This document shows positions 6,401-55,187 of a stretch of DNA of 63,638 nucleotides, in pieces. The position numbers and the translations under genes are program-made. How positions within the stretch are numbered: the first letter of the stretch is position 1; every line of letters starts with the position of its first letter. Source of the DNA: an uncultured Methanosarcinales archaeon (GTDB lineage: Archaea > Nanobdellota > Nanobdellia > Woesearchaeales > JACPBV01); contig CAZTWQ010000005.1 in NCBI GenBank assembly GCA_964618315.1, positions 1 to 63,638 of the forward strand, read 5' to 3'. The notes beneath the pieces are model-generated. The model made no database searches and was not told where the DNA came from. It saw nothing but the letters and a program-made list of their open reading frames with translations.

Positions 6401-9400
6401 AAATAGTACAGTAGTACAGTTTACACTAGATACTACTGCCCCTGTGATATCAAACTTAAGAAATACTTCAACTACAAATCAAAGTTCATTCATAGAATGG
6501 TCTTGTAATGAAGCATGTAATTATACTATATTGTGGTATAATTCAACAGATTTAGTTGGAACGATAAATAATAATACATTTGCTACTTCACATAATCCTT
6601 TCTTAAGCTCATTAGTGAACTCAACAACATATATTGTGAACCTTACTGTTTATGATAATATGGGTAGTTCTACTGTCAATAATACGTTTAACTTTACTAC
6701 TGATAAAAATGAGATAATAGTTGATTCAATACCACCATATTATGATAACTTTGCGAATAATGGTTCTACACTGACAAAGATAAGTGGTGTTGTGAATTGG
6801 AGCATAGACTTATCTGATGGTGTTGGGTTGAATAGTTATTATTTTGCGCATAACCAGACTGGAACATTATCGAATCAGACCCTTAAATCGTTATCTGGAG
6901 AAAGTCAATCTGTAAATGAAACTTTGGCAATAACATTGACTCGTGGGAATTATATCTGTGGTCAGTTCTGGTTTGATGATGCAAATGGTAATGTTAATAG
7001 TACATTACTTACTGAATCTGGTGCTTGCTTTACTGTTGCAAATACTGCACCAATTACACCTACGATATATTATCCTGTAAGTGGTGGGAATTATAGTGAT
7101 ATTCCATATATTAACTATTCAAGTAGTGATGCTGATGGTGATTCATTAACTTATAATGTTTATATTAATGGAAGCTTGAATGTAAGTACTTCTGTGAATA
7201 TAACAGATTGGAATGCTTCAGATGGTTATTATAATTTGACAGTTAGTGCTTCAGATGGTATTGATAGTTCGGCTAATTCGAGCGTAGTAGAATTCAGGTT
7301 GGATACAATACAGCCTTCATTTAGTGGAAATAAAGATAATGCTTCATCTACAACCTATAATGGAACTGATGTGCAGTTGAATCTGACTATAAGTGATGAT
7401 GTTGGGTTGAGTAATTATAGGTTAACTACTAATGATACTTCAGATGGAGTATGGGTTAACCAAACTCTAAATTCAGTAAACGGAGCGACTTCAGTAACTG
7501 CTATCTTCAACTACTCAATACATAACTTCTCAATACTAGGTGGTACCCTTGGATGGAGAGTATGGGGTAATGATTCTGCTGGAAATGTAAACGAATCAGA
7601 AACTTACACCTTAACAGTTCAATCAAATGATAATATAAACCCTAATTCAAACATAACAATAAACAACACGCAACCAAAGATAAACGACATAGTAAATATT
7701 TCCCTAAACGTATCAGACAACATAGCATTAAGCTCCTGCTGGTTCTACAACAATATGTCTAAGCAAAACTCTTCAGCAATAAGCATTTCAGGAACATCAG
7801 ATCATGATACATGCTTTAATGTAACAACAATAAATGTTTCACAAGGCAAACAAGTATTATTCATAGGCTATGTCAATGACACCGGTGGAAACCTAAACTC
7901 TTCACAAACAACAATAACGGTTGCTAATACAGCCCCTATAACTCCTAGTGTGAGTTATCCAGTTAGTGGTGTAAATTATACTGATATTCCTTATATCAAT
8001 TATTCTTCAACAGATGCAGATAGTGATAGTCTGACTTATAATGTTTATATCAATGGAACATTAAATATATCTGGAATAAGCACAAATGTAACTGATTGGA
8101 ACGCTTCGGATGGTTATTATAATTTGACTGTATCTGTTTCTGATGGAAGTGATAGTTCTGCTAATTCTAGTGTAGTAGAGTTCAGGTTGGATACAATAGA
8201 ACCTTCATTTAGCTCTAACCAAACAAATGCTTCAGCTACTACTTATAATGGGACTGATGTGCAGTTGAACTTAACTATGAGTGATGGTGTTGGGTTGAGT
8301 TATTATAGGTTAACTACTAATGATACTTCTGATGGAAGTTGGGTTAACCAAACATTAACAACTGCAAACGGAGCAACTTCTGTAGGGGCTATCTTCAACT
8401 ACTCAATACATAATTTCTCAATAATAGGTGGGACATTAGGATGGAAGGTATGGGGTAATGATTCTGCAGGTAATGTAAACGAATCTCAGGTATTTACTTT
8501 AACAATTCAATCGAATGACAACACTAATCCACAATCAAACATAACAATTAACAACACTTCGCCAAAGATAAATGATGTAGTGAATATTTCAATGAATGTA
8601 TCTGATAATGGAGCTTTAGATTATTGCTGGTTCTACAACAATATGTCTAAGCAAAACTCTTCAATAATAAGCTTGTCTGGAACATCGGATCATAGCCTAT
8701 GCTACAACACAACAACAATAAACTTAACACAAGGTAAAAACATATTATTCATAGGCTATGTAAATGACACAACAGGAAACTTAAATTCTTCAAGAACTAC
8801 AATAACAGTAGCTAATACAGCACCGACAACGCCTACTGTTATTTATCCTGTTAGTGGTGGAAATTATACTGATATTCCTTATATTAATTATTCTTCGTCT
8901 GATGCAGATGGTGATAGTCTGACTTATAATGTTTATATTAATGGGAGTTTGAATGTAAGTAGTTCTGTGAATATAACTGATTGGAATGCTTCAGATGGTT
9001 ATTATAATCTGACTGTTTCTGCTTCTGATGGAATGGATAGTTCTGCTAATTCCAGTTCTGTGTTGTTTAAGCTGGATAGTACTGATCCAAGTGTGAATAT
9101 TATCTATCCATCTGATGATCTTAATGTTTCTTCTAATTCCATTGACTTTAATGCTACTGCGAGTGATGGTCTGGCTTCTTCGCTTACTTATTATTGGATT
9201 GTGAATGGAACATTGAACAGTACATCTGTTGATAGCAATAGTACGTTTAATGCAAGTGATGGATATTATAATTTAACATTGCTTGTGTCTGATGGACTAA
9301 ATAATGGGTCTGATACTGTGTTGTTTGCTTTGGATACTACTGCGCCTTTAGTATCAATCACAACCCCATTAGATGATACAATTGCTGGATGGAATGTGTT

Positions 9401-12400
9401 ATTGCAAGCTGAGATTACTGACCTTACTTCTGTTGTAAGTGCTAGTTATCAGATCAGGAATGGTACTTTGAGTGATGCTATAATCTATAATGGAAGTCTT
9501 GGGTTGTTGAGTGAGGATGTTTATAATGCTACGTTTGCTACTAATGAGACTTGGCCTTATAGTAATAGCTTGTTGAATAGTACTAATCTGACTTTGGTTG
9601 TGATTGCTAATGATACTCTTGGGAATGAGGCAAATGCTTCTACTTACTTTGTGCTTGATAATTCTAAGCCAGGAATCCAGTATGTTACGCCACTTGCTAC
9701 GGGTGAGTTTGTCAATGAGAACTTTAGTTTGAGTGTTTACTTGAGCAATCATAAGTTGAACTATAGTTTTGTGAATATTTCTTTAGATGGCGTTACTGCT
9801 TATTATAATTCTACTAGTTTAGATGTTGGTACTTATTATTGGACTGATCTTGTTAATGTTACTGGGTTAAGTGAAGGGAATTATAGCGTATCTGTGTATG
9901 CTAATGATACTCAGGGTAATAATAGAACTACATCAAGTTGGTTCTATGTTGATAAGACTGCTCCGAATGCTTCTCTTGCAGGTAGTGTTGGTGGGTGGGT
10001 TAATCCTACACCTGATAATGGTACGTTTACTAATGTTGTATTGCAGATATTTAATATGAGCTGTAATGAAACTATAAGTTCTATTAATGATGTTTGGATC
10101 AACTTGAGCAATGGAACTAAGTATAGTACTGAATCTGGGTCTTCTGGTGTGTATTATTGGTTTAGTGTTTCTTTGAATGAGGGTTCATACAATTATACTG
10201 GTTATTGTAATGATTCTGTTGGTAATCTGGGTAGTACTGAAACTAGGGGGTTGACTGTTGATACGACTTACCCAACATGGCAAGACAACAAGACAAACCT
10301 TACTTCATCAACACCATCTGGAAGCACAGTTTACTTTAATATCACCTTAAATAGCTCAAACCCAGATAAATACATCTTCAGCTGGTATAATGGCAGTGAT
10401 TGGGTAAATGATACTCCAACCAGCTATACAAACGGCCAAGAGATAGAAGTCTTGAAAAACATAAGCATAAGCTCAGGAGATATAAATTGGACAGGGTATT
10501 TCAACGATACTGCTGGTAATATGAATCAGACAGATGTTTGGAGCATAACAATCCTATCATCCTCAATCAGCCTGTCTATGATTTATCCAACTGCAAACAT
10601 CAATGTAACACAAAATGAATTCTTCAATGTGACTGCTCAGGTCTGCTGTTATGATAGTGATTGTGGTGAAATCAATACTACATTAAGCCTAAACGGCACT
10701 TTAAACTATACCAATACTACCGGCCTGATAACACAGGATTCTGATTTAGGCAATGATACTATTGCTGCAAGTGTTGAAAATGCACCTGATGAATCAAAAG
10801 AAGATGCATTTGACCAAAACACTGGTACAAAATGGCTTACATTGAATGAAAATACTGGATGGATAATCATAGAATTAGGAAATGGCGCACAAAGGATGTG
10901 GAAATATGAGATCTGCAGTGCTAATGACGCATCAACAAGAGATCCAGATAACTGGATTATTGAAGGTAGTATTGATAATTCCTCATGGGCGGTCCTAGAT
11001 ACAGTAATAAGCAATGGCCAGTTTGCAAGCAGAGAAACATGTTATACTTTCTATCCAGATTCTATAGGCAGCTACAAATATTATAAGATGAATGTAACTC
11101 AGAATAATGGCGCTGAGCATATGCAGATGTCTGAGATTAAATTTTACCAACAAAACAGCACCCGTGATCCTGTGATATCAGAGGATTCAGGAACTCCTTT
11201 CTATACAAATGTTACAAATCCGTATAATATGAGTTTATCTAAAGATGAGTGTTCAAACATCACATGGTTCTTAAATGCAACAGGAAGCACAGGTAGCAAG
11301 AATCCTATCTTTGCATATGCAAATAAGACTTCTAATATGAAAATATCAAATATTACCAGCAGTTTTAACATCACAATACTTGAATGTCTTGTAGATGGAG
11401 ATTGTTCAGGAGATAATAACTGTTTATCTGGAACATGTACAGCCCCTCCAGATATAATCTTCCCTAGCATAAGCTTTAGTTTACCGACACCTACAAATGC
11501 AACATCACAGGCAGAAAATAATGTAGAGATCAATATAACAATAAATGAAACTAACCTTGATACGATCAAATACAATTGGAACGGAACAAACTATACTATG
11601 TACAATGACTCTTTGGTACTATTGATGAATTTTGATAATATGAGTGAATTGGGAGAGAACAATACTTATGCAGTAGATATAAGCAGTTATGGAAATGATG
11701 CAGTTATAGATGGTCCAACCTGGAACTCAAGCGGAAAGTATGGTGGTACATTTGAATTTGATGGTGTTGATGATTTCATAAACATATCAGATGACTCAAG
11801 CCTCGATGTAACAAATGAATTGACTATAATGTTCTGGATAAAAGGAACAAATCCTGCTGATTATTCTGCAATACCTATTGCACATGGAACATATGGAGAT
11901 TCATTCTGGTTTGAATTATATAATTTAGATACAGGTATGCAATTTTATGTTAATATAGATGGTGTAGGGGCAAGAGGAAACAATAACAAATTCAATATAT
12001 CTTCTGATACATGGACACACGTTACAGGTACATTTGATGGACAATATATTAGAGTATATGTAAATGGAACATTATATGACAGTAAAGCTCAAGCTGGTTC
12101 AATAGCAGTAAGCAATACTCCATTATATATGGGATTAAGTGATGGAGACACTTGGGGGGGACATTATTTTAATGGGAGTTTAGATGAAGTGATGATATGG
12201 AACATAAGTTTATCAGATGATGAGATCTATTCTCATTATATCTCAAGCCTAAAGAAGGTTGGCACAGACAGCTGGGAGCTTTATGTCAATCAGAGCAAGA
12301 ATGCTACTGATGGTTTAAGTGATGGAGATTATACTTATCAGGCATTTGCTAAAGATGATGCTGGGAATTTAAATTATACTGAAACGAGGACTGTGATAAT

Positions 12401-15400
12401 AAATACAACAGATACTACATTGCCGACATATACAAATCTTGCTAATAATGGATCTACTGTAACTAGAGTTAATGGTGTTGTGAATTGGTCTGTGACTTTG
12501 GCGGATGATATTGGGTTGAGCAATTATTACTTTGCGCATAACCAAACAGGTACGCTTGAGAACCAGAGCCTTAAGATATTAAGCGAGGATTCTCAGTTTG
12601 TGAATGAGACTTTATCTATTACATTAACACAGGGGAATTATGTATGTGGACAGTATTGGTTCAATGATACTAGTAATAATGTTAATCAGACAGGGTTGAG
12701 CTGCTTTACTGTTGCTAATAGTGCTCCTGCTGTGCCTAGTGTGATTTATCCAGTAGATGGTAATAATTATACTGATATTCCATATATCAATTATTCTTCA
12801 TCTGATGCTGATGCTGATTCGTTGACTTATAATGTTTATATTAATGGTAGTTTGAATGTAAGTAGTTCTGTGAATATTACTTCATGGAATGCTTCTGATG
12901 GTTATTATAATCTGACTGTATCGGCTTCTGATGGGATTAATAGTTCTGCTAATTCCAGTTCTGTGTTGTTTAAGTTGGATAGTACTGCTCCAAGTGTGGA
13001 TGTTGTTTATCCATCTGATGGGCTTAATGTTTCATCTAATTCCATTGACTTTAATGCTACTGCAAGTGATGGTCTGGCTTCTTCGCTTACTTATTATTGG
13101 ATTGTGAATGGTACTTTGAACAGTACATCTGTTGATAGCAATAGTACGTTTAATGCTAGTGATGGATATTATAATTTGACCTTGTTTGTGTCTGATGGGC
13201 TTAATAATGGGTCTGATACTGTGATGTTTGCTTTGGATACTACTGCACCGTTAGTATCGATTGCAACTCCACTAGATGATACTATTGCTGGATGGAATGT
13301 GCTGCTGCAAGCAAGTATTAGTGATATGATTTCATTAGATGGTGTGACATTTGAGATTAGGAATGGTACTTTGAGTGATGCTATAATCTATAATGGAAGT
13401 CTTGGGTTGTTGAGTGAGGATGTTTATAATGCTACGTTTGCTACTAATGAGACTTGGCCTTATAGTAATAGCTTGTTGAATAGTACTAATCTGACTTTGG
13501 TTGTGATTGCTAATGATACTCTTGGGAATGAGGCAAATGCTTCTACTTACTTTGTGCTTGATAATTCTAAGCCAGGAATCCAGTATGTTACGCCACTTGC
13601 TACGGGTGAGTTTGTCAATGAGAACTTTAGTTTGAGTGTTTACTTGAGCAATCATAAGTTGAACTATAGTTTTGTGAATATTTCTTTAGATGGCGTTACT
13701 GCTTATTATAATTCTACTAGTTTAGATGTTGGTACTTATTATTGGACTGATCTTGTTAATGTTACTGGGTTAAGTGAAGGGAATTATACAATTAGTGTTT
13801 ATGCTAATGATACTCAAAGCAATAATAGGACTACTACTTCTTGGTTCTATGTTGATAAGACTGCTCCGAATGCTTCTCTTGCTGGTAGTGTTGGTGGTTG
13901 GGTTTCTCCTACACCTGATAATGGTACAATAACTAGCACAACTACACAAACATTTAATATGAGTTGTAATGAAACAATTAGTTCTATCAACTCTGTATGG
14001 ATTAATTTGAGTAATGGAACTTCATACAACACAGAAACAGGATCTTCAGGAGTATATTATTGGTTTAATCTTACCTTAAATGATGGTACATATAACTACA
14101 CAGGTTATTGTAATGACACTGCAGGAAATCTAGCCAGTACTGAAACTAGGATTTTAACCATCGATCTAACAGCCCCAAGATGGCAGGATGATAAAACTAA
14201 TTTAACCTCATTAACAACAAACGGAAGCATGGTCTACTTCAACATAACCCTTAATGAATCAAGACCAAACAAATATGTATTCAGCTGGTATAATACAAGT
14301 GTTTGGGTTAATGATAGTGCAACTTCTTATACTGATGGACAAGAAGTAAGCATAACTAAACAAGTAAATTCTTCTTCGGGAACCCTAAAATGGACCTGGT
14401 ACGTAAATGACACAGCAGGCAACCTAAACCAAACAGATATTTGGAGTGTTGCACTTGCTGGCACTGAATCTTTCATAGGTCTAGAATGGATTTATCCAAC
14501 ATCAAATATAAACGTAACTCAAAATAGGTTCTTCAACGTAACTGTGAATGTAAGCTGTTCTGGTGGCAATTGCGGTGAGGTAAATGTAACCCTAGATCCT
14601 ATTGCTTATACAGTATACAACTTCACAACCTGTGGGCAAACAGGGCAAACAGGTCCTAACCAAAGCCAGTGCAATGTTAATTATTCTGGAACAACCCTAG
14701 AAGGTCTTGTAAATGTAAGTGGTGGAATCCAAAACTGGACAGTTCCAACAACAGGAGATTACATAATTGAAACATCAGGAGCTGCAGGAGGTGGCAGTTT
14801 TGGAAACTCGGCTAATGGTGGATTAGGTACAAAAATTATTGGAACTTTTTCACTTACCAAAGGGGAGGTTCTTCAGATTGTTGTAGGTCAGAAAGGTGGC
14901 AGAGGAGGATATTCAGGTGCAGATGCTGGCATGACTAGTGGTGCTGGCGGTGGAGGCGGTGGAGGTACATTTGTATATACTCTAGATTATGGTGCTGGCG
15001 GAGAGTACCCATTAATTGTTGCTGGCGGTGGAGGCGGAGCTGAGGCTATTGTTGGACGTAATGCTTCAATAACTATAAATGGTACAGCTTCTGTTGGTGG
15101 AGACGTTGCTGGTGCTGGAGGAACAAACGGTACACACGGTTTGATTGGTGACCAGACTAATGGTAACTATCATGGTGGTCCAGGTGCAGGTTGGAAGTCA
15201 AGAAATACCTATAGAAAAACAACAGACCATGGAGAAGGAGGATATTCCTATGCTGGAAACTGGACAGGGGGAGACACAGGTGCGGACAATCCAGAAGCAA
15301 TTGGTGGATTTGGTGGTGGTGGTGGTGCTTCTGAACATAGTGGTGCAGCAGGTGGTGGTAGTGGATATTCTGGTGGAGGTGCTAGTCGTCAAGCAAGTAG

Positions 15401-18400
15401 TGCTGCAGGTGGTGGTGGTGGCTCATATAATAATGGAACTAATCAGAACAATACTGTAGGGGTAATTTTAGAAAGTGGATATGTAAGCATAAAAATAGAA
15501 TCCGCTAAAACAGGCAAAGTTTCAACAACTACTGGAGCAACACCATTCTACACAAATGTAACTAATCCATACAATGTAACCCTAGATGAAGACCAATATA
15601 GTTTAATAACATGGTATGTAAATGCAACAGGTAATGTAGAAACCACCCATGAATTCTTTGTATATGCAAACAGAACAGCTAATATGTCAGTTAGTAATAT
15701 AACGTCTAAATGGAATGTTACAATTATTGAACTAGACATTTATCCACCTACATGGTACAATAACAAAACTAATTTAACATCCACTACAACAATTGGAAGT
15801 GAAATTTACTTTAATATAACGGTAAATGACACATACCCAGAGAAATATATCTTTAGCTTCTATAACGGAAGCGTTTGGATGAATGATACAGCAGCTTCCT
15901 ATATAAGCGGTCAAGAACTATCTGTTATTAAATCAATAAATTCAAACCCAATCCGTTGGAAATGGTACTTTAATGATACTGAAGGTAATTTAAATCAGAC
16001 AGATGAATGGGCTGTAATCCTTGCCTCTTCTATTGGTATATCTTTAATATCTCCAAGTGGAAATATGAATGCTACACAGAATAGAACTTTCAATGTTACT
16101 GTTAATGTAAGTTGCACAAGCAGTGTTCCTTGCGGAGAGATAAATGTTACTCTGGATCCTGCTGCAGTTGGCACTGTTTATAATTTTACAAGCTGTGGGG
16201 CAACAGGAAGATATGGGCCTTCACAAGCTAATTGTACTGCTAATTATAGTGGAACAACGTTAGAAAATTTAGTAACTGTTGGTGGAGGAATACAAAATTG
16301 GACAGTACCTTCAACTGGAACTTATAGGATTACAGTAGCAGGTGCTAAAGGTGGTGGCAATAACAATGCTGGTAATGGTTCAATAGTACGTGGGGATTTC
16401 TCATTGATAGAGGGGCAGATATTGAAAATCTTAGTTGGACAACAAGGAGGTTATGAAGTGTCTGGTAGTGGTGGTGGTGGAACTTTTGTAGTCAATGTAT
16501 CTAATGACCCTATAATTATCGGAGGGGGAGGGGGGGGACAATATAATACAGTATCAATATTGCTTAATGCGCAGGGGAGGACAGAAACTTCTGGTGGAAA
16601 TACTGTTAGTCGTACTGGTGGAATAAACGGTTTAGGTGGTAGTGGAGGTACTTGTGCTGGTGGTGGCGGACTTATTGGTAATGGTGGGACAGCTTCTTAT
16701 GGTACCCCTGGACTTTCATTTATAAATGGTGGAGTTGGTGGAGATCATTCATCTTATGCTCAATGCATTGGTGGATTTGGTGGTGGCGCTGGTACACATG
16801 GAAATACTGGTGGTGGCGCTGGCGCTGGCGGTTACTCTGGAGGAGCAGGAAGTGATCAATCAACGTCAGATGCTGGTGGTGGTGGTGGTTCTTATATTAG
16901 CGTTGAAGCAACAAATGTTGTAACTTCTGATGGTATGTTTAATGGTTCATCTACATTTAATTCTATAGCTATCACTAATTTAAGTTCTAGGAATCCAAAT
17001 CATGGGTATGTTACCTTTGAAGTTATAAGTACAGAAGGTAAAAGTGGAGTAATCTCAACACTTACCAATGAGACACCATTCTGGACAAATATGACTAGTA
17101 ATCCATATAACATATCATTAAGCAGTGGAGAAAGTCAAATTGTTACATTCTGGGTAAATGCAACTGGTGGGGTGGATGTTACTCATAACTTCTATGTTTA
17201 TGCAAACCAGACATCTCAAATGTCAACATCCAACCAAACAACGAAATGGAATGTTACAATTATTGAGCCAGACACTTCAGGTCCAGCATGGTCAAATAAT
17301 AAAACAAATCTTAATTTATCAACAACTCTTGGAAGTACAGTTTACTTTAATATAACTGTATCTGATGCAAATCCTGATAAATATATATTTAGTTTCTATA
17401 ATGGTAGTGTTTGGTCGAATGATACATCAATTTCTTACACAAGTGGACAAGAACTATCTACTAATAGGTCAATAAATTCAAGTCCTATTAATTGGAAGTG
17501 GTATTTTAATGATACCGAAGGTAATGTAAACCAAACTGATGAATGGACTGTAAGTTTATCTTCTGATGTGGGCATTACTTTGATATACCCTACCTCAGAT
17601 ATAAACATCACTCAAAAGAAGGTTTTTAATTTCACTGTACTTGTTAATTGTACTGGCCAGGTAAACTGCGGAGAGATTAATGTTACTCTTGATAGTGAAA
17701 ATTCATTTATCTTGGATAACTTTGATACAGGGGAATTGGCGGGCGATTATTGGACTACTTCTAGTAGTACTGAAAATGGAAATATTACTGTAAGAACAGA
17801 GGTTGCAAATTCAGGAAGTTATTCAGTTATAGCTGACGTCAATGATGATGCAGGAGCTAACTTAAACCAATTGATAACAAATTATGACTTTTCAGGAAAT
17901 CATTATATATATTTAGATTTCTATTGGAGAGAAACAACTAATGACGAGACTCAACATACAGGATCAGACCATTCTGGAACTCAAAATGCAGATGCTGTTT
18001 ATTATACTTGTAATGGAACTTATTGGTATCACTTAGCAAGTGCGCCAGCTAGCTTTACTTCCTGGGAATATAAGGCAATTAATATAACTGCAGACTCTGA
18101 TTTCTGTAATACTACTACATCAAACTTTAAGATAAAATTCACCCAATATGATAATCTCGCATGGCCTGGTGATGGAATTGCATGGGACGATATTAATATT
18201 ACTTATAGTTCTGGAGGGGGAGGAATAATTTCAACAAATAGTAATGCATCACCTTTCTGGACTAATGTTTCAAATCCATATAGTATTACTTTGAATAAAG
18301 GAGAAAGCCAATTTGTTACATTCTGGGTAAATGCGACAGGAGCTGCCAATGAAACATTTAAGTTCTTTGCATCTGTTAATAGGACAGGTTTAATGTCAGA

Positions 18401-33400: not shown

Positions 33401-36400
33401 AACAACTAACCTAACAGACTGGAACGCCTCTGATGGCTTCTACAATCTAACAGTATCTGCATATGATGGAATAAACTCAAGCAGCAATAGCTCAGTAATA
33501 CATTTCACCCTAGACACCACACCTCCAACAATTATATTCACAGATCCAACACCTGATAATAATTCATTACAATCAGAACAATACATAACAATTAATCTTT
33601 CAATAACAGAAACAAGTTTAGATAAAATAGTATACAACTGGAACGGAACAAATTACACTTATTACAATGACTCTTTAGTATTGATGATGAATTTTGATAA
33701 TATCTCAGTTTTAGGTGAGAACAGCACTTATGTTGTTGATATAAGTGGAAGTGGAAATAATGGTACTGCAGGGGGAACTGCTCAAGTTAATACCACAGGT
33801 AAATTTGGTAATGCTTTATGGTTAGATGGCAATAGTGATTATGTGGAGATTACAGATAGCCCATCATTAGATATAGGGAATAATGAGATGACTATTACAG
33901 CTTGGGTTTACCCAAGGACTTTTGTTAATTCTGATGAGATTATTAAAAAAGATGGAGCTTACATATTAAGATTGAGTGGTACTTCCGGAGCTATAGAAGG
34001 TTATGTGTGGGCAAATACACCTACTAATAAAGTCGGAGCAAGCACTAATCTCTTAACACCAAATGATTGGAATCATGTTGCTATGACTTACAACTCAACT
34101 TACCAACAATTATTTGTTAATGGTGTACCAGATGCAACTGATCCTCAAACAGGCAATATAACTAATAGTGCTACCAATTTGATGATTGGTTCACACCAAA
34201 ATAAAGCTGGTGAATTTTTTGACGGATTAATAGACGAAGTAAGAATCTGGAACAGATCATTAAGCAAAGATGAAATCTATCAACAATATATTTCAAACCT
34301 TAAGAAAATAGATCAAGACAGCTGGGAACTATACATAAACCAATCCTTAAACGCAACAAACACATTACCAGACAACAATTACACATATCAATCATTCGCT
34401 TCAGACACTCTAGACAATTGGAACTCAACAGAACAAAGAATAATTACAATAGACTCAACACCACCAGCATCAAATATGAGCATAAACAACACATCACCAC
34501 AAATAAATGATGTAATAAACATCTCAATGAACGTTTCTGATAACCTCGAACTAAGTGCATGTTGGTTCTACAACAACATCTCCAATAGAAATTCATCGTT
34601 AATCAGCCTTTTGGGAACTTCAGAACATGACTTATGCTACAACATTACAACAATAAATTCAAGTTCAGATATATTATTTATTGGTTATGTAAATGACACA
34701 GCAGGAAACATAAACTCCTCTCAATTAATAATATCTGTAGCTAACACACTACCTACAGTGCCAAATGTTACATTCCCAGTAAACAACACAAACTACACAG
34801 ACATCCCATACATAAACTACTCTTCTACTGATGCAGATAATGACGAAATAACCTATAAGATCTACATAAACAATACCCTAAACCACTCCTCTACTACAAA
34901 CCTCACAGACTGGAACGCCTCTGATGGCTTCTATAACTTAACAGTATCTGCATATGATGGGATAGGGAGCTCAGCAAACTCAACACCAATATATTTCATC
35001 CTAGACTCCACCCCACCATACTTCTCAGACAATAAAACAAATGTGACAACAACAACTCCAAAATACAACGACACAGTACAAATTAATTTAACCTTAACAG
35101 ACTCATCAGAATTAGGGGGTTATTTCTTTGCCCATAACGAGACTGGAAACCTAACAAATTTAACTTATAAGGATATATCTGGAACATCTTACACATTATC
35201 AGAAAATATAACAATCTCTAACTTAAAGAGAGCTCAAATACTTGGCTGGCAAGTATGGGTAAATGACACACTAGGAAATGTAAACCTAAGCCAAATATAC
35301 ACAATAGAGATAAGAAACACACCTCCAACAATACCAAATATCACTTATCCAGTTACAGGCAAGAACTACACAGACATACCTTACATAAACTACTCCAGTA
35401 CTGATGCAGATAATGAGGAAATAACATACCACATATTCATAAACAATACTCTAAACATAACTGGAATAAGCACAAACTTAACAGATTGGAATGCTTCTGA
35501 TGGCTTCTACAATTTAACTATAACAGCAGATGATGGAACAGATAGCTCAGCAAACTCCTCAACAATCTATTTTAGACTAGACTCAACCCCGCCATCATTC
35601 TCTAACAACAAAACAAATGTGACGACAACAACTCCAAAATACAACGACACAGTACAGATCAATATAACATTATCAGATTCACTTGAGCTAGATGGGTATT
35701 TCTTTGCCCATAATGAGACTGGAAATCTAACTAACCTAACTTATAAGGATATATCTGGAACATCTTACACATTATCAGAAAATATAACAATCTCTAACTT
35801 AAAGAGAGCTCAAATACTTGGCTGGCAAGTATGGGTAAATGACACACTAGGAAATGTAAACCTAAGCCAAATATACACAATAGAGATAAGAAACACACCT
35901 CCAACAATACCAAATATCACTTATCCAGTTACAGGCAAGAACTACACAGACATACCTTACATAAACTACTCGAGCACTGATGCAGATAATGACACCATAA
36001 CATACCACATATTCATAAACAACACTTTAAACATCTCTACAACAGTAAATGTGACAGATTGGAACGCTAGTGACGGATACTATAACTTAACAGTATCAGC
36101 AGATGATGGAACAGATAGCTCAGCAAACTCCTCAACAATATATTTCAGACTAGACGGAACAAACCCAATCTGGTTTAATAACAAAACAAATATCACACCT
36201 TTAACTAAATCAGGAGACTTAGTCTATTTCAACATAACTCTTAATGAAACAAATCCAGATAAATATGTATTCAGTTGGTATAACGGAAGCATTTGGCTAA
36301 ACAACACACCAGCCACTTACACAAATAACCAAGAGATCCAAGTTAACAAAACAATAAACATACCTTATGGGGATATAAACTGGACCTGGTACATAAATGA

Positions 36401-39400
36401 CACATTAGGCAACCTAAACCAGACAGATATATGGGGCACAACAATAGTCTTACTCAATACAACTTTAAACAGTCCAGCAAATGATTCTACCTCAACAAGC
36501 ACAACTGTAATATTCAATTGCTCAGCAATATCAGGCACCAGTATAGCAAACATGACATTATATGCAAACTTCTCAGGAGCATGGCAAGCCAACCAAACAG
36601 TTAACCTTACAGGAACAAGTAACACAACAACATTCACAAAGACACTGAAAAACGGAACAACTTATATCTGGAACTGCTTAACTTACGACACTTCATCCAA
36701 CACAGATTGGGGTGATTCAAACAAAACTATAGTAGTTGACACATCAGTTGTCATAAACTCAATCTACAAAAACAGAGTTTTCTACGAAGATGGATCTCCA
36801 ATAAACATCACAATAAGAACCAATCAAGCAGATCTTACATTATCTGCAAACTTCTCATGTATTGACTCAAACTATGCAGGTCAAGAGACAGTAACTGACC
36901 ATGGCGATGGAAATTATTCAATTAATTACACAATTAGCAGTACCAATAATGTAGACACAACACCTTGCGCTTCAGATGCAACCCAACTATGCCATACAAG
37001 ATGTGAGATCAACATCACCCAAGATGGAACTCGCTTAACAGCCATTAACTTAAGCCTATATAATGGAAACGAATCAAATAATGGACAATGGTCTCCCCTC
37101 TATGTCTCAAGAGCAATCTCTTGCGCAGGAGGTTCAGATGCAGACTACTTTGATGAAGGAACAACTTGTCCAAATATCTATTATGACGGATCCAGTAATC
37201 TAACTGGTTCAAGAGTAGATCCTTCCTTCGCAGCATTCATGTACAATAATCCAGCAGGAGCAGAAACATTATGTACAGACTCAAGTGATGATTCAAAGGG
37301 CGCAGACCCTTCAAGTGGTAACTGTGATGATTTACAATGTGCTTCTGTTGTCTATGGTGAACCAGTTGGTGATAAAGATGCAGATAGAGCATATACTTGT
37401 GGGGTAAACACCAAAGGGTGGCGTGACGATCCATACACTACAGATGATACAGATTCTTGTAACTTAGATACAAACCTATGTTATATCACCATAGGAAATG
37501 CAATTACAGGATATACATCATTTGTTTACACTAAAACAGTAGGCAAAGAGGGTAATTTCAGCCTTCAGATAAGCCAAGATGATGCAAAACTAGATGGTAA
37601 TGGCCTGCAGTTCCAAGCATATAACTTTAACAGCACATTAGGAATCTGTGATGCAAATTCAGATAAATTCACAATATTGAACAAAAATCCAACTAACTCA
37701 TTAACAAATGAATTAAAAGATCTTGCAGATAGCTGCTCAAATGTAGGAATGGCACAAGCATTAACAGGTACAGATGCAGGGACAGCTTACGCAAATGACG
37801 ATCTTAATATAACCTTCAAAATCTCAGTAGACACATCAATCAGCGGAGAAGGTATCTTAATAACAAGAAAAGTAGGTGCAAGTACTTTAACAGGCAAGAT
37901 CAACTTCAGCATTACAGATGATGGAGCAATATGGGAACATGACACTTCTTGTACAGATTCAACAGATAATGACTTAGACTACTTAGTAGATTGCCTTGAC
38001 ACTGATTGTGACAATTACTCTGGAAATATTGCAGATTTAACAGATGTTTGCACATTTGGAAATGAAAGCAAATATGCCCTACAAAATAATACTTGCTTAG
38101 ACAGCTTTGATAATGATGCAGATGGTACTACTGACTGTACATGGGATAGTTCAGCATGGGACACAGACTGTAACAACACATGGATCAATTCAGCTGACAC
38201 ATACGATTCGAATGATGTAAGTGAAACAAGAAATGGAACTTGTCAGTTAGGACTAGAGACTACATGTGGTGATGGATTTGATAATGACCGAGATAGGAGC
38301 TATGATTGTGGATTAGAACAAATAACTGGCTACACGACCATAGTTTATGCCTTAGATCCAACAGATCCAAAAATAACCTACAGTGGAGGAACAGGCACTT
38401 CAAATAACCCAGATGCAGAATATGATTGTGCATCTTATTGTAGAGACTTAAACGAAAGTAACAGTGTAGAAAACGGCTCAGAATGCCTAGATGGAAAAGA
38501 CAATGATTGGGACTTCTATAATATAAACACTACAACTCAAAATACAACAGGTGGAGGTGTAGATTGTAGGATGGTAGAATATGACCTAGATTGCAACAAT
38601 ACTATGATGAATACTACAATAAATGCTACTTGCCAATTAATCAATGAAATAAATTGCAGTGATGGGTATGACAATGACCTAGATGGAGAATATGATTGTG
38701 TTGTCTCAGCAACAGGCTCTAACACAACAAACCCTATCTTCCAATACAGCCTCTCTGGCTCTAACACAGCACATGGGGAATATGATTGTCAAACTACCTG
38801 TAATGTTTCAGCTAACTTCGAAAACACAGCTGAAAAATGCTCTGATACAAAAGACAATGACTTAGACTTCTACACAATTACGGGCTGGGACACAGTAACA
38901 AACCAATATACAGCAACAAATAACAATGCTTCTGGAGCAGGGATGGATTGTAGATTCAATAATGATGGATTTAATTTCCCCGATCTAGACTGCAACGGCA
39001 CAGATATGACCGGCTCAGGACAAAACTGTGAACTTGGACATGAACAAAGCTGTGATGATAATTATGATAATGACCAAGATAATGTGTATAACTTTGGAGC
39101 TGATAGAATAACATCAACTAACGGCACTGATTGTGATGATTATGATTGTAAGGGAAATGCTGTTTGCCCTTCAACAGAAACAGCTTCGCTTTGCCTAGAT
39201 GGAAAAGACAATGACTTAGACCGTTATGTATTCAATATAACTGATTACCTGCTAGATGAAGACAGATCTGTCAACTCCACGGGGGGTATTGACTGTGTCT
39301 ACAATGATGGATCTACAAGACCTACATCTTTATCATACATATCTGGAAACTATAATGATGCAACAACAGGAAGATATAGTTATGATGTAGATTGTAACAA

Positions 39401-42400
39401 CACAATCATAGGATCTACCACGGAAAAATGCGAACTGATAAATGAATTAAACTGCTCAGATGGATTTGATAATGATCAAGATTCCTATGTAAGACCTGCT
39501 GCTTCCCCATCAGGAACAGCAATACAAACAGCAGGCTGGACAGAAGCAATCTACGAAGCATACTTCCCTTCACAATACAATACTGCAGCAGACTGTGATG
39601 ATTATTCCTGCGGTGGAAACTCGGCTTGTCCACAAAACGAATCAAACAATCAATGTCAATATGGTGATTGTGGTATAACAAAGAACTGGTGCTTAGACGG
39701 CATAGATAATGATCTAGATAACTACACCAGAGATGGGAAAACGGCAAATTCTACAATAGGAGCTGGAATAGATTGTCAATGGAAGGATATACCTTATGAT
39801 TCAGACTGTAATAATACATTGATCAATGATTCAGGTATTGTTGGAATGTGCCAGATAGCATGGGAATATAATTGTACAGATGGTCTAGATAATGACAGAG
39901 ACCTAGGGATCTATGAATTTGATGCAGGATACAACACAGGCATCGATTGTGATGATTATAATTGCCACGGCGTAACCAATTCTTCAGGAGACTATATCTG
40001 CTCTGATTCGCCAACCCAAATCCAGGAATTAAACTGCTCAGATGGAATAGATAATGACCTTGATTCATATTATTGGAATGGTACAGCATACTCACAAAAT
40101 TCCTCAACAGGAACAGATTGTTCAGATCCTGACTGTTCAGGCAGGATAGGTCCATCAGGAGTTAGTTGTGGGGATGAAAACAACAAAGCAAGCTGTATTG
40201 ATTACAATTTATCATTCTTTGCAGTAGATAATGATGAAGATGGTCCAGCTAATTGTTATGATTCTGGATGCTATAATCAGACATTCTATGGAAGATATTG
40301 CCCTTCATATGAAAACATCACAATAGATGCTTGCGCAGATGGCTTAGACAACGAAATTACTTATCAAGATGCTAGTGTTGCAAAAACAGGCTCAAGTAGA
40401 TTACAATACTTAGCAGCAAACAAGAACCTAACTCTTCATTCAGGAGATATAGATTGTGCAGATACAAATTGTATAGGGAAAATCTCTTTAATCTCTGGAA
40501 GCTATGGATATTGTACTGATGTAAATACAGCAGCAACAGAAAGCAATTGCGCAGATAACCTTGATAATGATATGGATGGTTTGACAGATTGTATCGATAC
40601 ATCAGATTGCCCAGAAGGAAGTACATCTTGTCCAACACAAAACCCAACAAATAATGTGGCAGGCGCAACATCGGGCTGGAATAACACAAATGATGGAAGA
40701 TTATCTGCATGGTCTTCAGTCTTACCACTAACAGATTCAGCAAACAATTGGAATGCATTCACAATAGATGCAGAATGGACCTCTGACGCATACCCTGGAA
40801 CATCTCTTAGTTGGACATTCACAGATTCTGCAGGAGCTCTTGACAACAAACAACTTACTTTCTACTTAGGGACCTTAACAGGAACAATGTTACCCTTACA
40901 ATATCAGCTTTCTAATGATAATTGTAGCATATCTGGCTCTAGCTCTTCATTATTCAATGCACCTTCTGTAACTCAATACGCCAACGGTTATGTATTGGCT
41001 GTTTCTTATAGTACAAACATACCTGCAGGTCATGCACTAAGCTTGAGCATATCATGTAATATTCCAGGTGGAGTTGACATAATAAACAACTCACCTTATG
41101 ATTACACAATAAACATAGATGATAGTGGAACATCATATGCTCAATTGATAGATACAGCAGGAGATAAACAATATATCCACGAAACAGAAGGAGCAAACAT
41201 AACTGGTTTTGTAACAAGTGAAAGCACAACAGTATTACAACGCCTAAGATCAGACAACACTATCTACAGATTAAGAAGCACAGACACAATAACTATAGAA
41301 GCTAACGCATCAGATGCCTTAGGAAACCCACTCTACAACACAGGAGTAGATTATTGCTCATTTGACAATAACTCAGGAAACTATGCATATAATGGTTCTA
41401 CTAAAGGAGATTGTGAAGAATCAATCACTATTGCAGATGGTGAACATAATATATCTGCAATAGCCATAGATGGTATTGGTAACATAGGATTACCATCAAC
41501 TATAACAATAAATGTAACAACATTACCTAGGCAAGATACAGATATCTACTGTACACTAGACAACTGCTCAACATCATTCCCAGCAAAACAACATTATGAC
41601 TCCACAGAATCATTGCCAATAGGCGTAAACTTCACTAGTGATGTAGCTGGCTTCAATGAAAATGCAACCGGCTGTACAGTAAAAGCAGAGACTAACAGCA
41701 CAATAACTAATTTAGGAACAATACCACTAAACACATCAGTAGACAATAAGACTGCTATCTGTAATGGTGCAATATCATTAAGCAGCCTAAGCGACAACTT
41801 CTATTATATCACAGTAACAGTAACTGATGATGATGATAACAACGCAACGTCAGGAATAGCTCCAAACAACCAAAACTTCGGGAAAAAACCTGTCTGGATC
41901 TGCGACTACATGGGAACACCAAATAACTGGACCTGCCTTACTGCTGATGAAAAAGTAAGCCCTGTTGTTCACACAGTAACAGCCACTCCAACAAAGGGTG
42001 AACCGGGGACTACTTTCAACATAGTAGCCAATGCAACTGATGATCTTGGAATAAATTCAGTAGTTGCCCATATACAAAAACCAGATGAAAACAACATAAT
42101 TAATATTACATTAAGTCTAGATAATGGCCTGTATCTAGGTTCTTGGAATTCTACTGGCAATACAGATGGGTCATATATTATTGATGTAGTAGCTAGTAAT
42201 ATAGTCAATAATGAAGGGGGAAAAGAAAACGGAGCAATCATTGCATTGGCCCCATACTCACTCAACACATCTATTAATTCCTCGATAAATTTTACAGCAA
42301 ACGAATATATAATAATCAACGCTACATCAGAAGTAGGCACATGGTTGAACATATCTACCAATATAAATGTAACCTCTTCCGTTGCTATGGCAGGATACAC

Positions 42401-43730: not shown

Positions 43731-44636
43731 TTATTCATTAACATAGGTTAACCAATGCTCATACTTATTATTCTTTCCATGAACAACGTCCATGAATATA
43801 TTCTTAAGTTTAGTTGTTATAGGGCCCATCTCCCCATCCCCTATAACAGTATCATCTATCTGTTTTATTGCTGTTACCTCTGCAGCAGTCCCTGAAAAAA
43901 ATACTTCCTGAGCGTTTTTTGCTTCTTCAACTGTTAAATCTTTTTCGATCAATTCAATGCCTTCATCTTTCGCTATTTGAATTATGGATTTTCTTGTAAT
44001 ACCTGGAAGAATTGTACCTAATTTAGGCGTATATATCTTCCCATCAGTTACAATGAAAAAATTCTCACCAGGCCCTTCACTTATCAGACCTTTGTAATCT
44101 AATAATAATGCCTCATCATAGCCTGCTTTTTTGATTTCTAAACTAGCTAAGATTGAATTTGCGTAGTTTCCACATATTTTTGCATCTGGATCTGTAGTTT
44201 TAGGATGTATTCTGATTATGTCTGGGATTTTAACTTTAATTGCTGCTTCACCTAAGTAAGATCCCCAGGGCCATACTGCTATAGCTACATTAATATCTGC
44301 TCCTTCTGGGTTAAGGCCCATTTTTCCATAACCGAAGAATGCAATTGGTCTAATGTAGCCAGAATTGACTTTATTTGCTTTGATTGTTTCTATTGTTGCT
44401 TTGTTGATTTCTTCTTTTGTGAAGGGAATTTTCATCTCAAAAGCTTCTGCTGACCTAAATAACCTATCGGTGTGGTCTTTTAGTCTAAAAATTACTGGTC
44501 CTTTGTCTGTTTCATAGAAGCGTTCGCCTTCAAAAACACCTGCACCATAATGCAATGTATGTGTAAGTACGTGAATCTTAGCTTCTTTCCAAGGCACTAA
44601 TTCGCCATCCATCCAGATAAATTCAGTTTCGTCCAT
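43731..44636 (-). CDS. ilvE: Branched-chain amino acid aminotransferase
   Basis: IWMDGELVPW..A.IHVLTH.LHYG.GVFEG, EGPGENFF, ILPGITR, FFSGTAAEV. The start is moved to ATG 44636 because the GTG at 44645 is part of the AGGTGA SD site. Confidence 0.95.
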   Translation of the reverse strand: MDETEFIWMDGELVPWKEAKIHVLTHTLHYGAGVFEGERFYETDKGPVIFRLKDHTDRLFRSAEAFEMKIPFTKEEINKATIETIKANKVNSGYIRPIAFFGYGKMGLNPEGADINVAIAVWPWGSYLGEAAIKVKIPDIIRIHPKTTDPDAKICGNYANSILASLEIKKAGYDEALLLDYKGLISEGPGENFFIVTDGKIYTPKLGTILPGITRKSIIQIAKDEGIELIEKDLTVEEAKNAQEVFFSGTAAEVTAIKQIDDTVIGDGEMGPITTKLKNIFMDVVHGKNNKYEHWLTYVNE

Positions 44637-44706
44637 AAAAATCACCTAGTAAATAAGTATTTGAATTTGATTTAAAAAAGTTTTGTTAGGGGGGAGGGTT
44701 ATAAAA

Positions 44707-46938: not shown

Positions 46939-46985
46939 ATTATAACTACTATAAAGTTAATAAATCATTTAAAAATCTTTTGGAA

Positions 46986-47852: not shown

Positions 47853-47888
47853 AAAAATAAAAGAAAAAAGGATTTATTTAAAGGTTTT

Positions 47889-47907
47889 TAAAAAAAAGAA
47901 AAAAGAA
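47889..47907 (-). terminator. Oligo-U archaeal-type terminator after the TIM-barrel gene
   Basis: TTTCTTTTTTCTTTTTTTT on the minus strand, directly after the stop codon. Confidence 0.45.
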
Positions 47908-47908
47908 A

Positions 47909-48841: not shown

Positions 48842-48959
48842 AATTATCAACCCCCTAAGTTGTTAATAGTTAAAATTGATGGAAGATATATAAAACTTTT
48901 TAAAATATCGACGATAAATTTATCTAAATTAGGTGGTAAAAAAGAAGAGAAAAAATAAA

Positions 48960-50603: not shown

Positions 50604-50608
50604 ATTAA

Positions 50609-51862: not shown

Positions 51863-52125
51863 TTTTAATCATTAATAATTATTTGGTGAAACTATATAAT
51901 TGATTTTTTGTGAAGTGAAAAATCATAATTTAATAGTTGAATAATGTTTAAGTGATTTGAAATGGTGTGAAAAATGCAAATTGACTTGATGTATATTACC
52001 CCTATCAAGTTTTATATTTAAATTTATTGTGTTGACTAAAAAATTTATTATAATAACGCTAGTTTTATGATAATAATACTTAATATCATTAATTTTCAGA
52101 AATATTAAAGAATAATTTCTCATCT

Positions 52126-52243: not shown

Positions 52244-52275
52244 AGTATATAAGTAAGCTATTTTAAGTTATTTCT

Positions 52276-53671: not shown

Positions 53672-53699
53672 TTTATAGAATAAATAATTTAATGGTATA

Positions 53700-55153: not shown

Positions 55154-55187
55154 TTTTTTCTTGCCTCCATACTTTGTTTGTTAATAT

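What the first reader, a model, noticed from the sequence alone, without database searches (positions are those of the whole stretch)
7590..43163. The same peptide modules are written in opposite synonymous dialects (T/G-ending vs A/C-ending), switching at module borders
YTDIPYINYSS at 8865-8897 has 10 of 11 codons ending in T; the same peptide at 35943-35975 has 9 of 11 ending in A or C. Switches are abrupt: to A/C near 7590, back near 7930, to A/C at about 10260, a T/G island over LamG-7 (about 33720-34000), A/C dominance over about 24-42 kb, then T/G from about 42540. Possible explanations are modules imported from loci on opposite replichores, or selection for recoding that lowers DNA identity between repeats and protects a 43-kb gene from deletion. 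Long-range mRNA pairing is a third, more speculative option.
Basis: partly seen in the sequence, partly recalled or inferred. Interest (0 to 1): 0.65.

Follow-up and report, generated by a model that had tools for sequence, protein, structure and literature searches.

The report
Opposite strand signatures inside one giant gene
A 43-kb surface-protein gene of a marine DPANN (Nanoarchaeia-like) archaeon is a patchwork of segments whose silent codon positions carry mirror-image, strand-specific mutation signatures, which most likely records recombination between gene copies that sat on opposite DNA strands rather than any codon-level selection.

Summary
In one 14,385-aa ORF, third-position T+G content runs from 0.23 to 0.85 in sharply bounded blocks, also after controlling for amino acids. 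Contigs from independent metagenome runs cross every switch checked.

The two "dialects" are reverse-complement mirror images at 4-fold sites (A/C: A.595 C.109 G.039 T.257; complement of T/G: .573 .164 .021 .243). In this low-GC archaeal clade, ordinary genes use one dialect or the other according to their DNA strand. The bias also shifts codon positions 1 and 2. This is strand-asymmetric mutation pressure, not tRNA-driven choice.

Dialect tracks module lineage. The A/C islands in the 5' part are 57-77% identical to A/C-half copies but 25-46% to T/G copies, and similarity changes partner where the dialect flips. A collinear 61%-identical homologue in a relative has no switch at the main junction.

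Best reading: a recombinational mosaic of segments with opposite strand histories. Recoding to protect repeats and mRNA pairing are not supported. Only some switches lie at domain borders. No donor was found, and a test for ongoing re-equilibration was inconclusive.

The parts
6..43163 (+). Giant ORF (14,385 aa in the window). It is truncated at the 5' end by the contig end, inside DUF285 repeats. It encodes an adhesin-like surface protein with DUF285, several Laminin_G_3, Big_13, MAM and Y_Y_Y domains and many ~95-aa Ig-like repeats.
   Evidence: another assembly extends it to 14,589 aa, and there too it is cut by the scaffold end
1254..7439 (+). T/G-dialect block (third-position keto 0.70; sub-blocks up to 0.83)
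   Evidence: HMM segmentation
7440..7916 (+). A/C island 1 (159 aa, keto3 0.31). Its protein sequence is of the A/C-half lineage.
   Evidence: contig 7205-7766 crosses its 5' border with 0 mismatches in 4 runs
7917..8345 (+). T/G module between the two islands; 80-83% identical to other T/G copies
8346..8822 (+). A/C island 2 (159 aa, keto3 0.40); 81% identical to island 1
   Evidence: contigs 8318-8654 and 8634-8949 cross both borders
8823..10268 (+). T/G block (keto3 0.83). It is a recent duplicate of 12734-14323 (1,597 nt, 86.8% DNA identity; 92% aa).
10269..12275 (+). A/C-to-intermediate block, including a Laminin_G_3 domain
   Evidence: a 3,020-nt contig, 9950-12969, spans both borders
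12276..14021 (+). T/G block (keto3 0.81)
14796..21659 (+). Intermediate, strand-symmetric block (4-fold A .433, T .431). It is homogeneous, not a fine mixture of the two dialects.
23760..42560 (+). Main A/C-dialect block (about 18.8 kb, keto3 0.37-0.39), interrupted by T/G islands at 32727-32882 and 33681-34028
33681..34028 (+). T/G island overlapping the N-terminal part of a Laminin_G_3 domain (Pfam match about 33825-34277)
42561..43160 (+). Non-repeated C-terminal 200 aa in T/G dialect, ending in a very basic tail
23844..23874 (.). 31-mer shared with a differently abundant organism. It makes all Logan assemblies break about 100 nt after the main switch.
43731..58612 (-). ilv/leu biosynthesis cluster and neighbours on the minus strand. 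They use the A/C-type dialect on their own coding strand, so the window + strand is T/G-rich there.
52276..53046 (+). Metallo-beta-lactamase-fold gene on the + strand with a strong T/G dialect (4-fold keto 0.73)
59844..63638 (+). Second giant gene (N-terminal TM anchor, DUF285). It runs off the window and is 3,892-4,044 aa in other assemblies. Its composition goes from T/G at the 5' end to intermediate.

Best explanation
The two 'dialects' are the two mirror-image outcomes of one strand-asymmetric mutation pressure. In this low-GC marine Nanoarchaeia-like clade, silent codon positions are T/G-rich in genes coded on one DNA strand and A/C-rich in genes coded on the other. The asymmetry is probably replication-associated. 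The giant gene lies on the strand where genes are T/G-rich. Its T/G parts, including the unique C-terminus, are therefore 'at home'. Its A/C parts acquired their composition while coded on the other strand, either in an oppositely oriented paralogue or in the homologous gene of a related strain. They were then spliced in, in frame, by homologous recombination or gene conversion between collinear repeat modules. Some mosaic units were later tandemly duplicated with their dialect borders intact, and older imports have drifted to an intermediate composition. Shown here: the mirror symmetry, the strand rule in ordinary genes, the effect on non-synonymous positions, the lineage/dialect coupling for the islands, and the physical reality of the junctions. 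Inferred: the replication origin of the asymmetry, the opposite-strand donor, the recombination route, and the relative timing.
For: (1) 4-fold sites: A/C state A.595 C.109 G.039 T.257; T/G state A.243 C.021 G.164 T.573, whose complement is .573/.164/.021/.243. The intermediate state is strand-symmetric. (2) Strand rule in ordinary genes. In the window, minus-strand genes pooled give A.506 C.098 G.060 T.336, and the + gene 52276-53046 is strongly T/G. In relative L009, 14/14 genes on one strand have keto4 <=0.47 and 5/5 on the other have >=0.57 (p=0.0007). L010 gives p=0.017 and L020 p=0.001, and L014 and L027 go in the same direction. Whole co-oriented clusters differ, so the bias follows the absolute strand and not the transcription direction. 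(3) At aligned homologous residues that differ, the T/G copy has the more keto-rich codon positions 1+2 in 985 cases vs 685 (p=2e-13). This indicates long-term mutation pressure, not synonymous-codon selection. (4) Lineage coupling. Same-dialect repeat pairs reach 92% aa identity, while pure cross-dialect pairs reach at most about 54-64%. The A/C islands at aa 2479-2637 and 2781-2939 are 57-77% identical to A/C-half copies (aa 10929-11084, 11442-11581) and 25-46% to T/G copies. Identity to T/G copies jumps to 80-92% exactly where the dialect flips. (5) L027's 5,441-aa gene is collinear with aa 5846-9789 and with the C-terminus. It is 61% identical on both sides of the 23760 switch and compositionally flat across it. 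The junction is therefore a replacement between collinear homologues, not a fusion of unrelated parts. (6) Other giant repeat genes of the clade are also out of line with their strand or mosaic: L017 ranges 0.28-0.68, and L027 is about 0.5 against neighbours at 0.3 and 0.7. (7) All junctions examined are covered by independent contigs at equal depth.
Against: No donor or oppositely oriented paralogue was found. The protein search with aa 12100-13100 returned only single-domain hits, and the only other giant gene in the window is in direct orientation. Polarised synonymous changes between recent duplicates are symmetric: A/C segments 47 toward keto vs 27 toward amino, T/G segments 27 vs 64. That is what parsimony bias gives at local equilibrium, not the >6:1 drift expected if the A/C segments had long been under T/G pressure. 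Either the duplications pre-date the import, or something maintains the A/C state. For the 18.8-kb main block there is no independent phylogenetic evidence of foreign origin, because identity to L027 is 61% on both sides. Replication direction cannot be determined from 20-kb loci of draft genomes. A double crossover, or two successive inversions, is needed to explain why the last 600 nt are T/G.
Confidence: 0.62

Rival explanations
1. The opposite compositions are actively maintained in place. One route is continuing segmental gene conversion from oppositely oriented donor copies, as in a recombinational surface-variation system. Another is an unknown local strand-biased mutation or repair process inside the gene.
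For: The polarised substitution test shows no net drift of the A/C segments toward T/G. The A/C islands that were duplicated within T/G surroundings (81% aa identity) are still strongly A/C, with keto3 0.31 and 0.40. Giant genes in relatives are also out of equilibrium with their strand.
Against: The gene is nearly invariant across 7 or more marine metagenomes from different studies, which argues against an active variation system. No donor cassettes, flanking inverted repeats or antisense ORFs were found. The substitution test is biased by parsimony and rests on small counts.
Confidence: 0.12
2. Selection recoded the repeats into different synonymous dialects to lower DNA identity and so protect the 43-kb gene from recombinational deletion.
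For: Cross-dialect pairs share somewhat fewer codons at conserved residues (0.40) than saturated same-dialect pairs (0.43-0.54).
Against: The observed 0.40 is close to the 0.42 expected from independent draws. Cross-dialect shared 12-mers exceed synonymous shuffles, 404 vs 300+-27. Recent duplicates are not recoded: there is a 558-nt exact repeat, a 1,597-nt repeat at 86.8% and a 1,351-nt repeat at 82.5%. An 861-nt repeat-unit deletion allele circulates. Recoding would not produce complement-mirror base frequencies, nor a shift at codon positions 1 and 2.
Confidence: 0.04
3. Translational selection: the A/C dialect (C-ending pyrimidine codons, A-ending purine codons) is the tRNA-optimal set, and some segments are optimised for translation speed.
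For: C over T in two-fold pyrimidine boxes and A over G in purine boxes is the direction expected for G34 and U34 tRNAs. The housekeeping ilv/leu genes use the A/C-like dialect.
Against: The base frequencies are reverse-complement mirrors, including T vs A at 4-fold sites. Codon usage in ordinary genes sorts by DNA strand and not by function, in several genomes. Non-synonymous positions shift in the same direction.
Confidence: 0.04
4. Replication polarity itself changes inside the gene, for example an origin near 42.5-43.7 kb and a fork-meeting zone near 23.7 kb, so that the + strand is lagging-type over 24-42 kb.
For: At the large scale the + strand goes T/G, then A/C, then T/G. One switch lies close to the 570-bp intergenic region after the gene.
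Against: This cannot explain the 477-nt islands or the many alternations in the 5' half. The 42561 switch lies inside the coding sequence. Relatives that lack the giant gene show no polarity change at the equivalent site after ilvE. The islands follow protein lineage.
Confidence: 0.04
5. Assembly chimera: the halves belong to different genes or organisms and were joined at a short repeat.
For: All Logan assemblies break at a shared 31-mer (23844-23874) about 100 nt after the main switch.
Against: In each of four runs, depth is equal on both sides of the node, and it differs from the depth of the alternative flanks (13-25x vs 46-56x in X4 and X5). Every 5' switch is crossed by single-copy contigs with 0 mismatches. 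A 10-kb contig spans 13853-23873. The homologous gene in L027 is collinear across the junction.
Confidence: 0.03
6. T/G and A/C segments pair with each other in the mRNA, giving long-range RNA structure.
For: None beyond the superficial complementarity of the base classes.
Against: Reverse-complement 12-mers between the two classes are at chance, 77 vs 77.6+-11.6. Third positions of two sense segments do not face each other in an antiparallel duplex.
Confidence: 0.01

Closest known systems
Strand-specific (replication-associated) mutational codon usage, as described for Borrelia, Chlamydia muridarum (PMC2089121) and Lawsonia intracellularis (PMC2671203)
   Same: Genes fall into two codon-usage classes according to DNA strand. 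One class is G/T-rich and the other A/C-rich at third positions, and the bias reaches amino-acid composition.
   Different: Here it occurs in DPANN-type archaea, with very large amplitude (4-fold GC skew up to about +0.77, AT skew about -0.40). Both classes coexist as sharp blocks inside one open reading frame instead of separating whole genes.
Compositional skew used as a record of past gene inversion (Merrikh & Merrikh 2018, PMC6220195; disputed by Liu & Zhang 2022, PMC9098844)
   Same: A coding sequence whose skew disagrees with its present strand is read as having recently changed strand.
   Different: That work scores whole genes by the sign of GC skew and is contested. Here the signal is intragenic, uses four bases at 4-fold sites with mirror symmetry, and is backed by module phylogeny for the islands.
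Mosaic genes and compositional amelioration after transfer (established concept, from my own knowledge of Lawrence & Ochman-type amelioration models)
   Same: Compositional discontinuities coincide with recombination breakpoints. Older imports are expected to look intermediate.
   Different: The imported parts do not differ in GC content or come from a different codon regime. They carry the same regime read from the other strand.
Giant repeat-rich surface or adhesin genes of DPANN archaea and other episymbionts (from my own knowledge: SPEARE proteins of nanohaloarchaea and the giant genes of Omnitrophota)
   Same: A very long ORF with an N-terminal anchor in the paralogue, and Ig-like, LamG and DUF285 modules. 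It is lineage-specific and flanks conserved metabolic genes.
   Different: To my knowledge and in the searches run here, none of these has been reported to show intragenic strand-signature mosaicism.

Membership tests
Strand-asymmetric mutational codon usage (replication-type) | Third-position composition of ordinary genes separates by DNA strand, independently of gene function | tested here: met
   Window; L009 p=0.0007, L010 p=0.017, L020 p=0.001, with L014 and L027 in the same direction. Absent in GC-0.47 groundwater Woesearchaeota (L024).
Strand-asymmetric mutational codon usage (replication-type) | The two classes are reverse-complement mirror images at neutral (4-fold) sites | tested here: met
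   A/C state .595/.109/.039/.257 (A/C/G/T) vs the complement of the T/G state .573/.164/.021/.243
Strand-asymmetric mutational codon usage (replication-type) | The bias extends to non-synonymous positions and amino-acid choice | tested here: met
   985 vs 685 aligned differing residues, p=2e-13; pos1/pos2 keto 0.552/0.438 vs 0.498/0.373
Strand-asymmetric mutational codon usage (replication-type) | Polarity switches at the replication origin and terminus of the chromosome | not testable with these tools
   Only 10-20-kb loci of draft MAGs are available; no closed genome
Recombinational mosaic gene | Compositional breakpoints coincide with phylogenetic (similarity-partner) breakpoints | tested here: met
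   Met for the islands at aa 2479-2637 and 2781-2939, and for the duplicate-block edge at aa ~3422/4673. Not resolvable for the main 23760 junction, where identity to L027 is 61% on both sides.
Recombinational mosaic gene | An identifiable donor locus | tested here: not met
   No close paralogue or donor in the protein search, in GTDB genomes or in the metagenome scan
Recombinational mosaic gene | Imported parts drift toward the local compositional equilibrium (amelioration) | tested here: inconclusive
   Polarised changes 47:27 (A/C segments) vs 27:64 (T/G segments) are symmetric and confounded by parsimony bias. A homogeneous intermediate block exists.
Site-specific invertible segment or shufflon | Inverted repeats flanking the segment and coding capacity in both orientations | tested here: not met
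   Longest inverted matches at the borders are 8-12 nt, against a null 95th percentile of 11. Antisense open stretches are at most 158 aa.
Cassette-based surface variation (vls or pilS type) | High within-population sequence variability of the expressed gene and nearby silent cassettes | tested here: not met
   The sequence is essentially invariant in 7 or more runs. There are no cassettes in the window.
Archaeal giant adhesin-like surface protein | Repetitive extracellular-type domains (Ig-like, LamG, MAM, DUF285) | tested here: met
   Pfam hits above the gathering score: Laminin_G_3, DUF285, Big_13, MAM, Y_Y_Y. The function itself was not tested.

The most novel reading that the evidence does not exclude
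The opposite dialects are not just fossils. They are kept apart by continuing segment exchange between oppositely oriented giant adhesin genes, which would make this a recombinational module-shuffling system in DPANN archaea whose traffic can be read from intragenic strand signatures. Alternatively, a so far unknown local strand-biased mutation or repair process operates inside the gene.
Probability: 0.12. Interest if true: 0.8.

Novelty: new variant of a known kind. Interest (0 to 1): 0.55.

Why it matters
The finding matters in three ways.

1. It shows that low-GC marine Nanoarchaeia-like DPANN archaea have an unusually strong strand-specific mutation bias. The bias is large enough to split codon usage, and partly amino-acid usage, into two classes. 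Archaeal skews are usually considered weak.

2. It shows that such a bias can serve as a built-in tracer inside a single gene. Blocks written in the 'wrong' mirror image mark segments that recently changed strand. This makes the otherwise intractable history of module shuffling in giant repeat genes readable from one sequence.

3. It is a practical warning. Intragenic codon-usage heterogeneity of this size could be mistaken for chimeric assembly, foreign DNA or translational tuning.

Tried and rejected
- **Exact-protein look-up of the window's ilvD with its GTG start:** not on record. The ATG-start version worked.
- **Exact 40-mer scan of GTDB genomes:** no hit.
- **C-terminal 785 aa against GTDB genomes:** one weak hit only.
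- **Protein search for a donor of the A/C block:** only single-domain hits.
- **Polymorphism-based mutation spectrum:** not feasible. Only Logan contigs are available, and strain diversity is 0.02-0.15%.
- **Outgroup-polarised substitution test:** symmetric and inconclusive.
- **Global test of change-points against linker motifs:** not significant. The motif set is crude, with 73 motifs.
- **Window ends joining into a circle:** no overlap and not in frame. The right-end ORF is a separate gene in other assemblies.
- **Invertible-segment idea:** no flanking inverted repeats and no antisense ORFs.
- **RNA-pairing and recoding ideas:** rejected by shuffling controls.
- **Antisense read-through from the convergent ilv operon as the cause of the A/C block:** rejected, because the 600 nt nearest that operon are T/G.
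Full report
**What is there.** The window holds one + strand ORF from 6 to 43163 (14,385 aa). No in-frame stop precedes nt 6, and the protein begins in the middle of a DUF285 repeat, so the contig end truncates the gene at its 5' end. Pfam finds DUF285, several Laminin_G_3, Big_13, MAM and Y_Y_Y domains. Self-comparison shows a dense array of ~95-aa Ig-like units and larger repeat blocks. Downstream lies a minus-strand ilv/leu biosynthesis cluster. After it, a second + strand giant gene runs off the window; it is a separate gene of 3,892-4,044 aa in other assemblies. The closest named ilvD homologues are from Nanoarchaeota and Woesearchaeota MAGs, and the sequence occurs in many marine and seawater metagenomes. 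The source is therefore a marine DPANN-type archaeon.

**Checking the observation.** Third-position T+G content in 200-codon windows ranges from 0.23 to 0.85, while positions 1 and 2 stay comparatively flat. Within synonymous families, T/(T+C) runs 0.42-0.98, G/(A+G) runs 0.00-0.68 and 4-fold keto runs 0.21-0.83, so amino-acid composition is not the cause. An HMM with emissions P(codon | amino acid, state) improves from -13694 (one state) to -12999 (two) and -12876 (three). Its change-points are 7440, 7917, 8346, 8823, 10269, 12276, 14022, 23760, 32727-32882, 33681-34028 and 42561. The third state (about 14.8-21.7 kb) is strand-symmetric and internally homogeneous.

**Is it an assembly artefact?** No.
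- Seven or more runs from different studies contain all sampled 31-mers of 20-29 kb.
- Contigs with zero mismatches cross 7440 (7205-7766), 7917 (7746-8255), 8346 (8318-8654), 8823 (8634-8949), and 10269 plus 12276 (9950-12969) in four runs.
- A 10-kb contig spans 13853-23873, and depth is flat over 21-41 kb.
- The one weak point is a 31-mer at 23844-23874 that is shared with another organism and breaks every Logan assembly. In each run the two flanks of this gene have the same depth, and that depth differs from the alternative flanks (13-25x vs 46-56x in X4 and X5). A homologous gene elsewhere is collinear across this point.

**What the dialects are.**
- At 4-fold degenerate sites the A/C state has A .595, C .109, G .039, T .257. 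The T/G state has A .243, C .021, G .164, T .573, whose complement is .573/.164/.021/.243. The two are reverse-complement mirror images.
- The twelve minus-strand neighbours are A/C-like on their own coding strand (pooled .506/.098/.060/.336). The + strand gene 52276-53046 is strongly T/G (.234/.032/.213/.521).
- The same rule holds in relatives. In L009 all 14 genes on one strand have 4-fold keto <=0.47 and all 5 on the other have >=0.57 (p=0.0007). L010 gives p=0.017 and L020 p=0.001, and L014 and L027 go the same way. It is absent in a GC-0.47 groundwater Woesearchaeote (L024).
- Whole co-oriented clusters differ from each other. The bias therefore follows the absolute DNA strand, as replication-associated asymmetry does, and not the direction of transcription.
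- At aligned homologous residues that differ between a T/G copy and an A/C copy, the T/G copy has the more keto-rich codon positions 1+2 in 985 cases against 685 (p=2e-13). The pressure is thus mutational and long-term.
- Taken together, these results exclude tRNA-based codon selection as the main cause.

**Why both occur in one gene.** Dialect tracks module lineage.
- Same-dialect repeat pairs reach 92% amino-acid identity with clear residual codon sharing. Pure cross-dialect pairs stay at or below about 54-64%.
- The two 159-aa A/C islands in the T/G-rich 5' part (aa 2479-2637 and 2781-2939, 81% identical to each other) are closest to copies in the A/C half (aa 10929-11084 at 57-63%; aa 11442-11581 at 49-60%). 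They are only 30-50% identical to their T/G counterparts. The T/G module between them is 80-83% identical to other T/G copies.
- In a sliding-window scan, identity to A/C-half copies is 57-77% across the A/C stretch, against 25-46% to T/G copies. The order reverses to 80-92% for T/G copies exactly where the dialect flips, near the linker ...ITVANTAP|ITPSV....
- The edge of the youngest large duplication (8831-10420 vs 12734-14323) also lies at a dialect switch.
- This is the pattern of recombination or gene conversion between two lineages with different compositional histories. Mosaic units were then tandemly duplicated with their dialect borders intact.

**The main junction.** A metagenome scan recovered L027, a 5,441-aa gene on a 283-kb contig. 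It is collinear with aa 5846-6243, 6471-7385, 7610-7924 and 8138-9789 (61% over 1,713 aa), and then with the C-terminus at aa 13988-14350.
- Identity is 61% on both sides of 23760, and L027's composition is flat (~0.5) across it. The module order across the switch is therefore ancestral.
- The switch has to be explained by replacement with a collinear homologue of opposite strand history, or by a later in-situ process. It is not a fusion of unrelated pieces.
- L027's gene (~0.5) is itself out of line with its strongly polarised neighbours (0.29-0.33 vs 0.69-0.74). Another marine giant gene (L017) swings 0.28-0.68, while L026's gene is uniform.
- In relatives with ~83% ilvD identity the ilv/leu cluster is syntenic, but both giant genes are absent.

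- Recoding for repeat stability is not supported. Codon identity at conserved residues in cross-dialect pairs is 0.40, against 0.42 expected from independent draws. Cross-dialect shared 12-mers exceed synonymous shuffles (404 vs 300+-27). The gene retains a 558-nt exact repeat and repeats of 1.1-1.6 kb at 80-87%. An 861-nt repeat-unit deletion allele (5942->6804) is present in some runs.
- Long-range RNA pairing is not supported: reverse-complement 12-mers are at chance, 77 vs 77.6+-11.6.
- The 'module border' claim is only partly true. Several switches sit at linkers, but aa 2479, 2781, 371 and 11342 are mid-domain, and a crude global test gave P=0.43.

**What remains open.**
- No donor locus was found.
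- Blocks are not flanked by inverted repeats and have no antisense ORFs, so an invertible-segment mechanism is unlikely.
- An attempt to see the A/C segments drifting toward T/G gave symmetric counts (47:27 vs 27:64). These are compatible with parsimony bias at local equilibrium. Either the duplications used pre-date the import, or the composition is being maintained. I leave about 12% for such an active or local process.
- The T/G C-terminal 600 nt require a double exchange, for example two successive inversions between inverted paralogues with different crossover points, or a long conversion tract. That step is inferred.

**Comparison with what is known.** Strand-specific mutational codon usage is well described in bacteria, for example Lawsonia (PMC2671203) and Chlamydia muridarum (PMC2089121). 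Using skew as a record of gene inversion has been proposed (PMC6220195) and disputed (PMC9098844). I found no report of an intragenic mirror-image mosaic, nor of such strong asymmetry in DPANN archaea. I therefore rate it a new variant of a known kind. The ingredients are ordinary. The case is unusually clean, and it is useful as a tracer of module traffic in giant genes.

Noticed in passing
window 1-200 and 63300-63638: Both contig ends break inside DUF285 repeats (the right end stops at ...AFNGSMQDMNWS and the left end starts at SMQNMNWSNNANF...). The ends neither overlap nor join in frame. In other assemblies the right-end ORF is a separate gene of 3,892-4,044 aa, so two paralogous giant genes in direct orientation flank the ilv/leu cluster.
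   Followed up: partly
window 5943-6803: An 861-nt (287-aa) repeat-unit deletion allele, with a joint 5942->6804 and 77 nt shared at the joint, occurs in Logan contigs of runs X18 and X12. The reciprocal joint occurs in X3. This is natural copy-number variation of a repeat unit.
   Followed up: partly
window 23836-23885: A ~50-nt stretch is shared, with 1-2 mismatches, with a different organism of different abundance in the same metagenomes (alternative flanks at 46-56x vs 13-25x). That organism probably carries a homologous giant gene.
   Followed up: partly
window 14796-15446 and 22155-22778 (aa 4931-5147, 7384-7591): Two glycine-rich modules (...SGAAGGG..., GGGGNGYFGGGAAGGYSGGGGGY...) lie inside the giant protein, with no Pfam assignment.
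   Followed up: no
window 43020-43160: The protein ends in an extremely basic, Lys/Tyr-rich tail (KKAMKFYKILRTKYMKLSKNAGYFKKTALYKKMKKLYKISKRFKKQ). Its function is unknown.
   Followed up: no
window 53672-54151: This 480-bp intergenic region upstream of ilvC is 62% A on the + strand, which is very atypical compared with the other spacers.
   Followed up: no
L009, L010 (relatives) vs window 43.7-59.8 kb: The ilv/leu cluster is syntenic in species with ~83% ilvD identity, but both giant genes are missing there. leuA, ilvB and ilvN, which are present upstream in the relatives, are replaced in the window by TrmB plus giant gene 2.
   Followed up: partly
L027 479-16801: The homologous 5,441-aa gene lacks the equivalent of aa ~9790-13987 of the window's protein (the ~191-aa tandem-unit array and the following repeat family). 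That ~12.6-kb stretch is therefore a lineage-specific expansion here or a deletion there.
   Followed up: partly
L017 (contig labelled Candidatus Omnitrophota, 11.2 kb): This contig consists entirely of one 3,724-aa ORF carrying the archaeal YTDIPYINYSS-type module at 59% identity, with GC 0.36. It is probably a mis-binned Nanoarchaeia contig.
   Followed up: no
window 13417 and 13420: Two linked A>G differences are fixed in the contigs of several runs (X3, X5, X6, X12, X16, X18), inside the young duplicated block. They could be strain variation or the paralogous copy.
   Followed up: no
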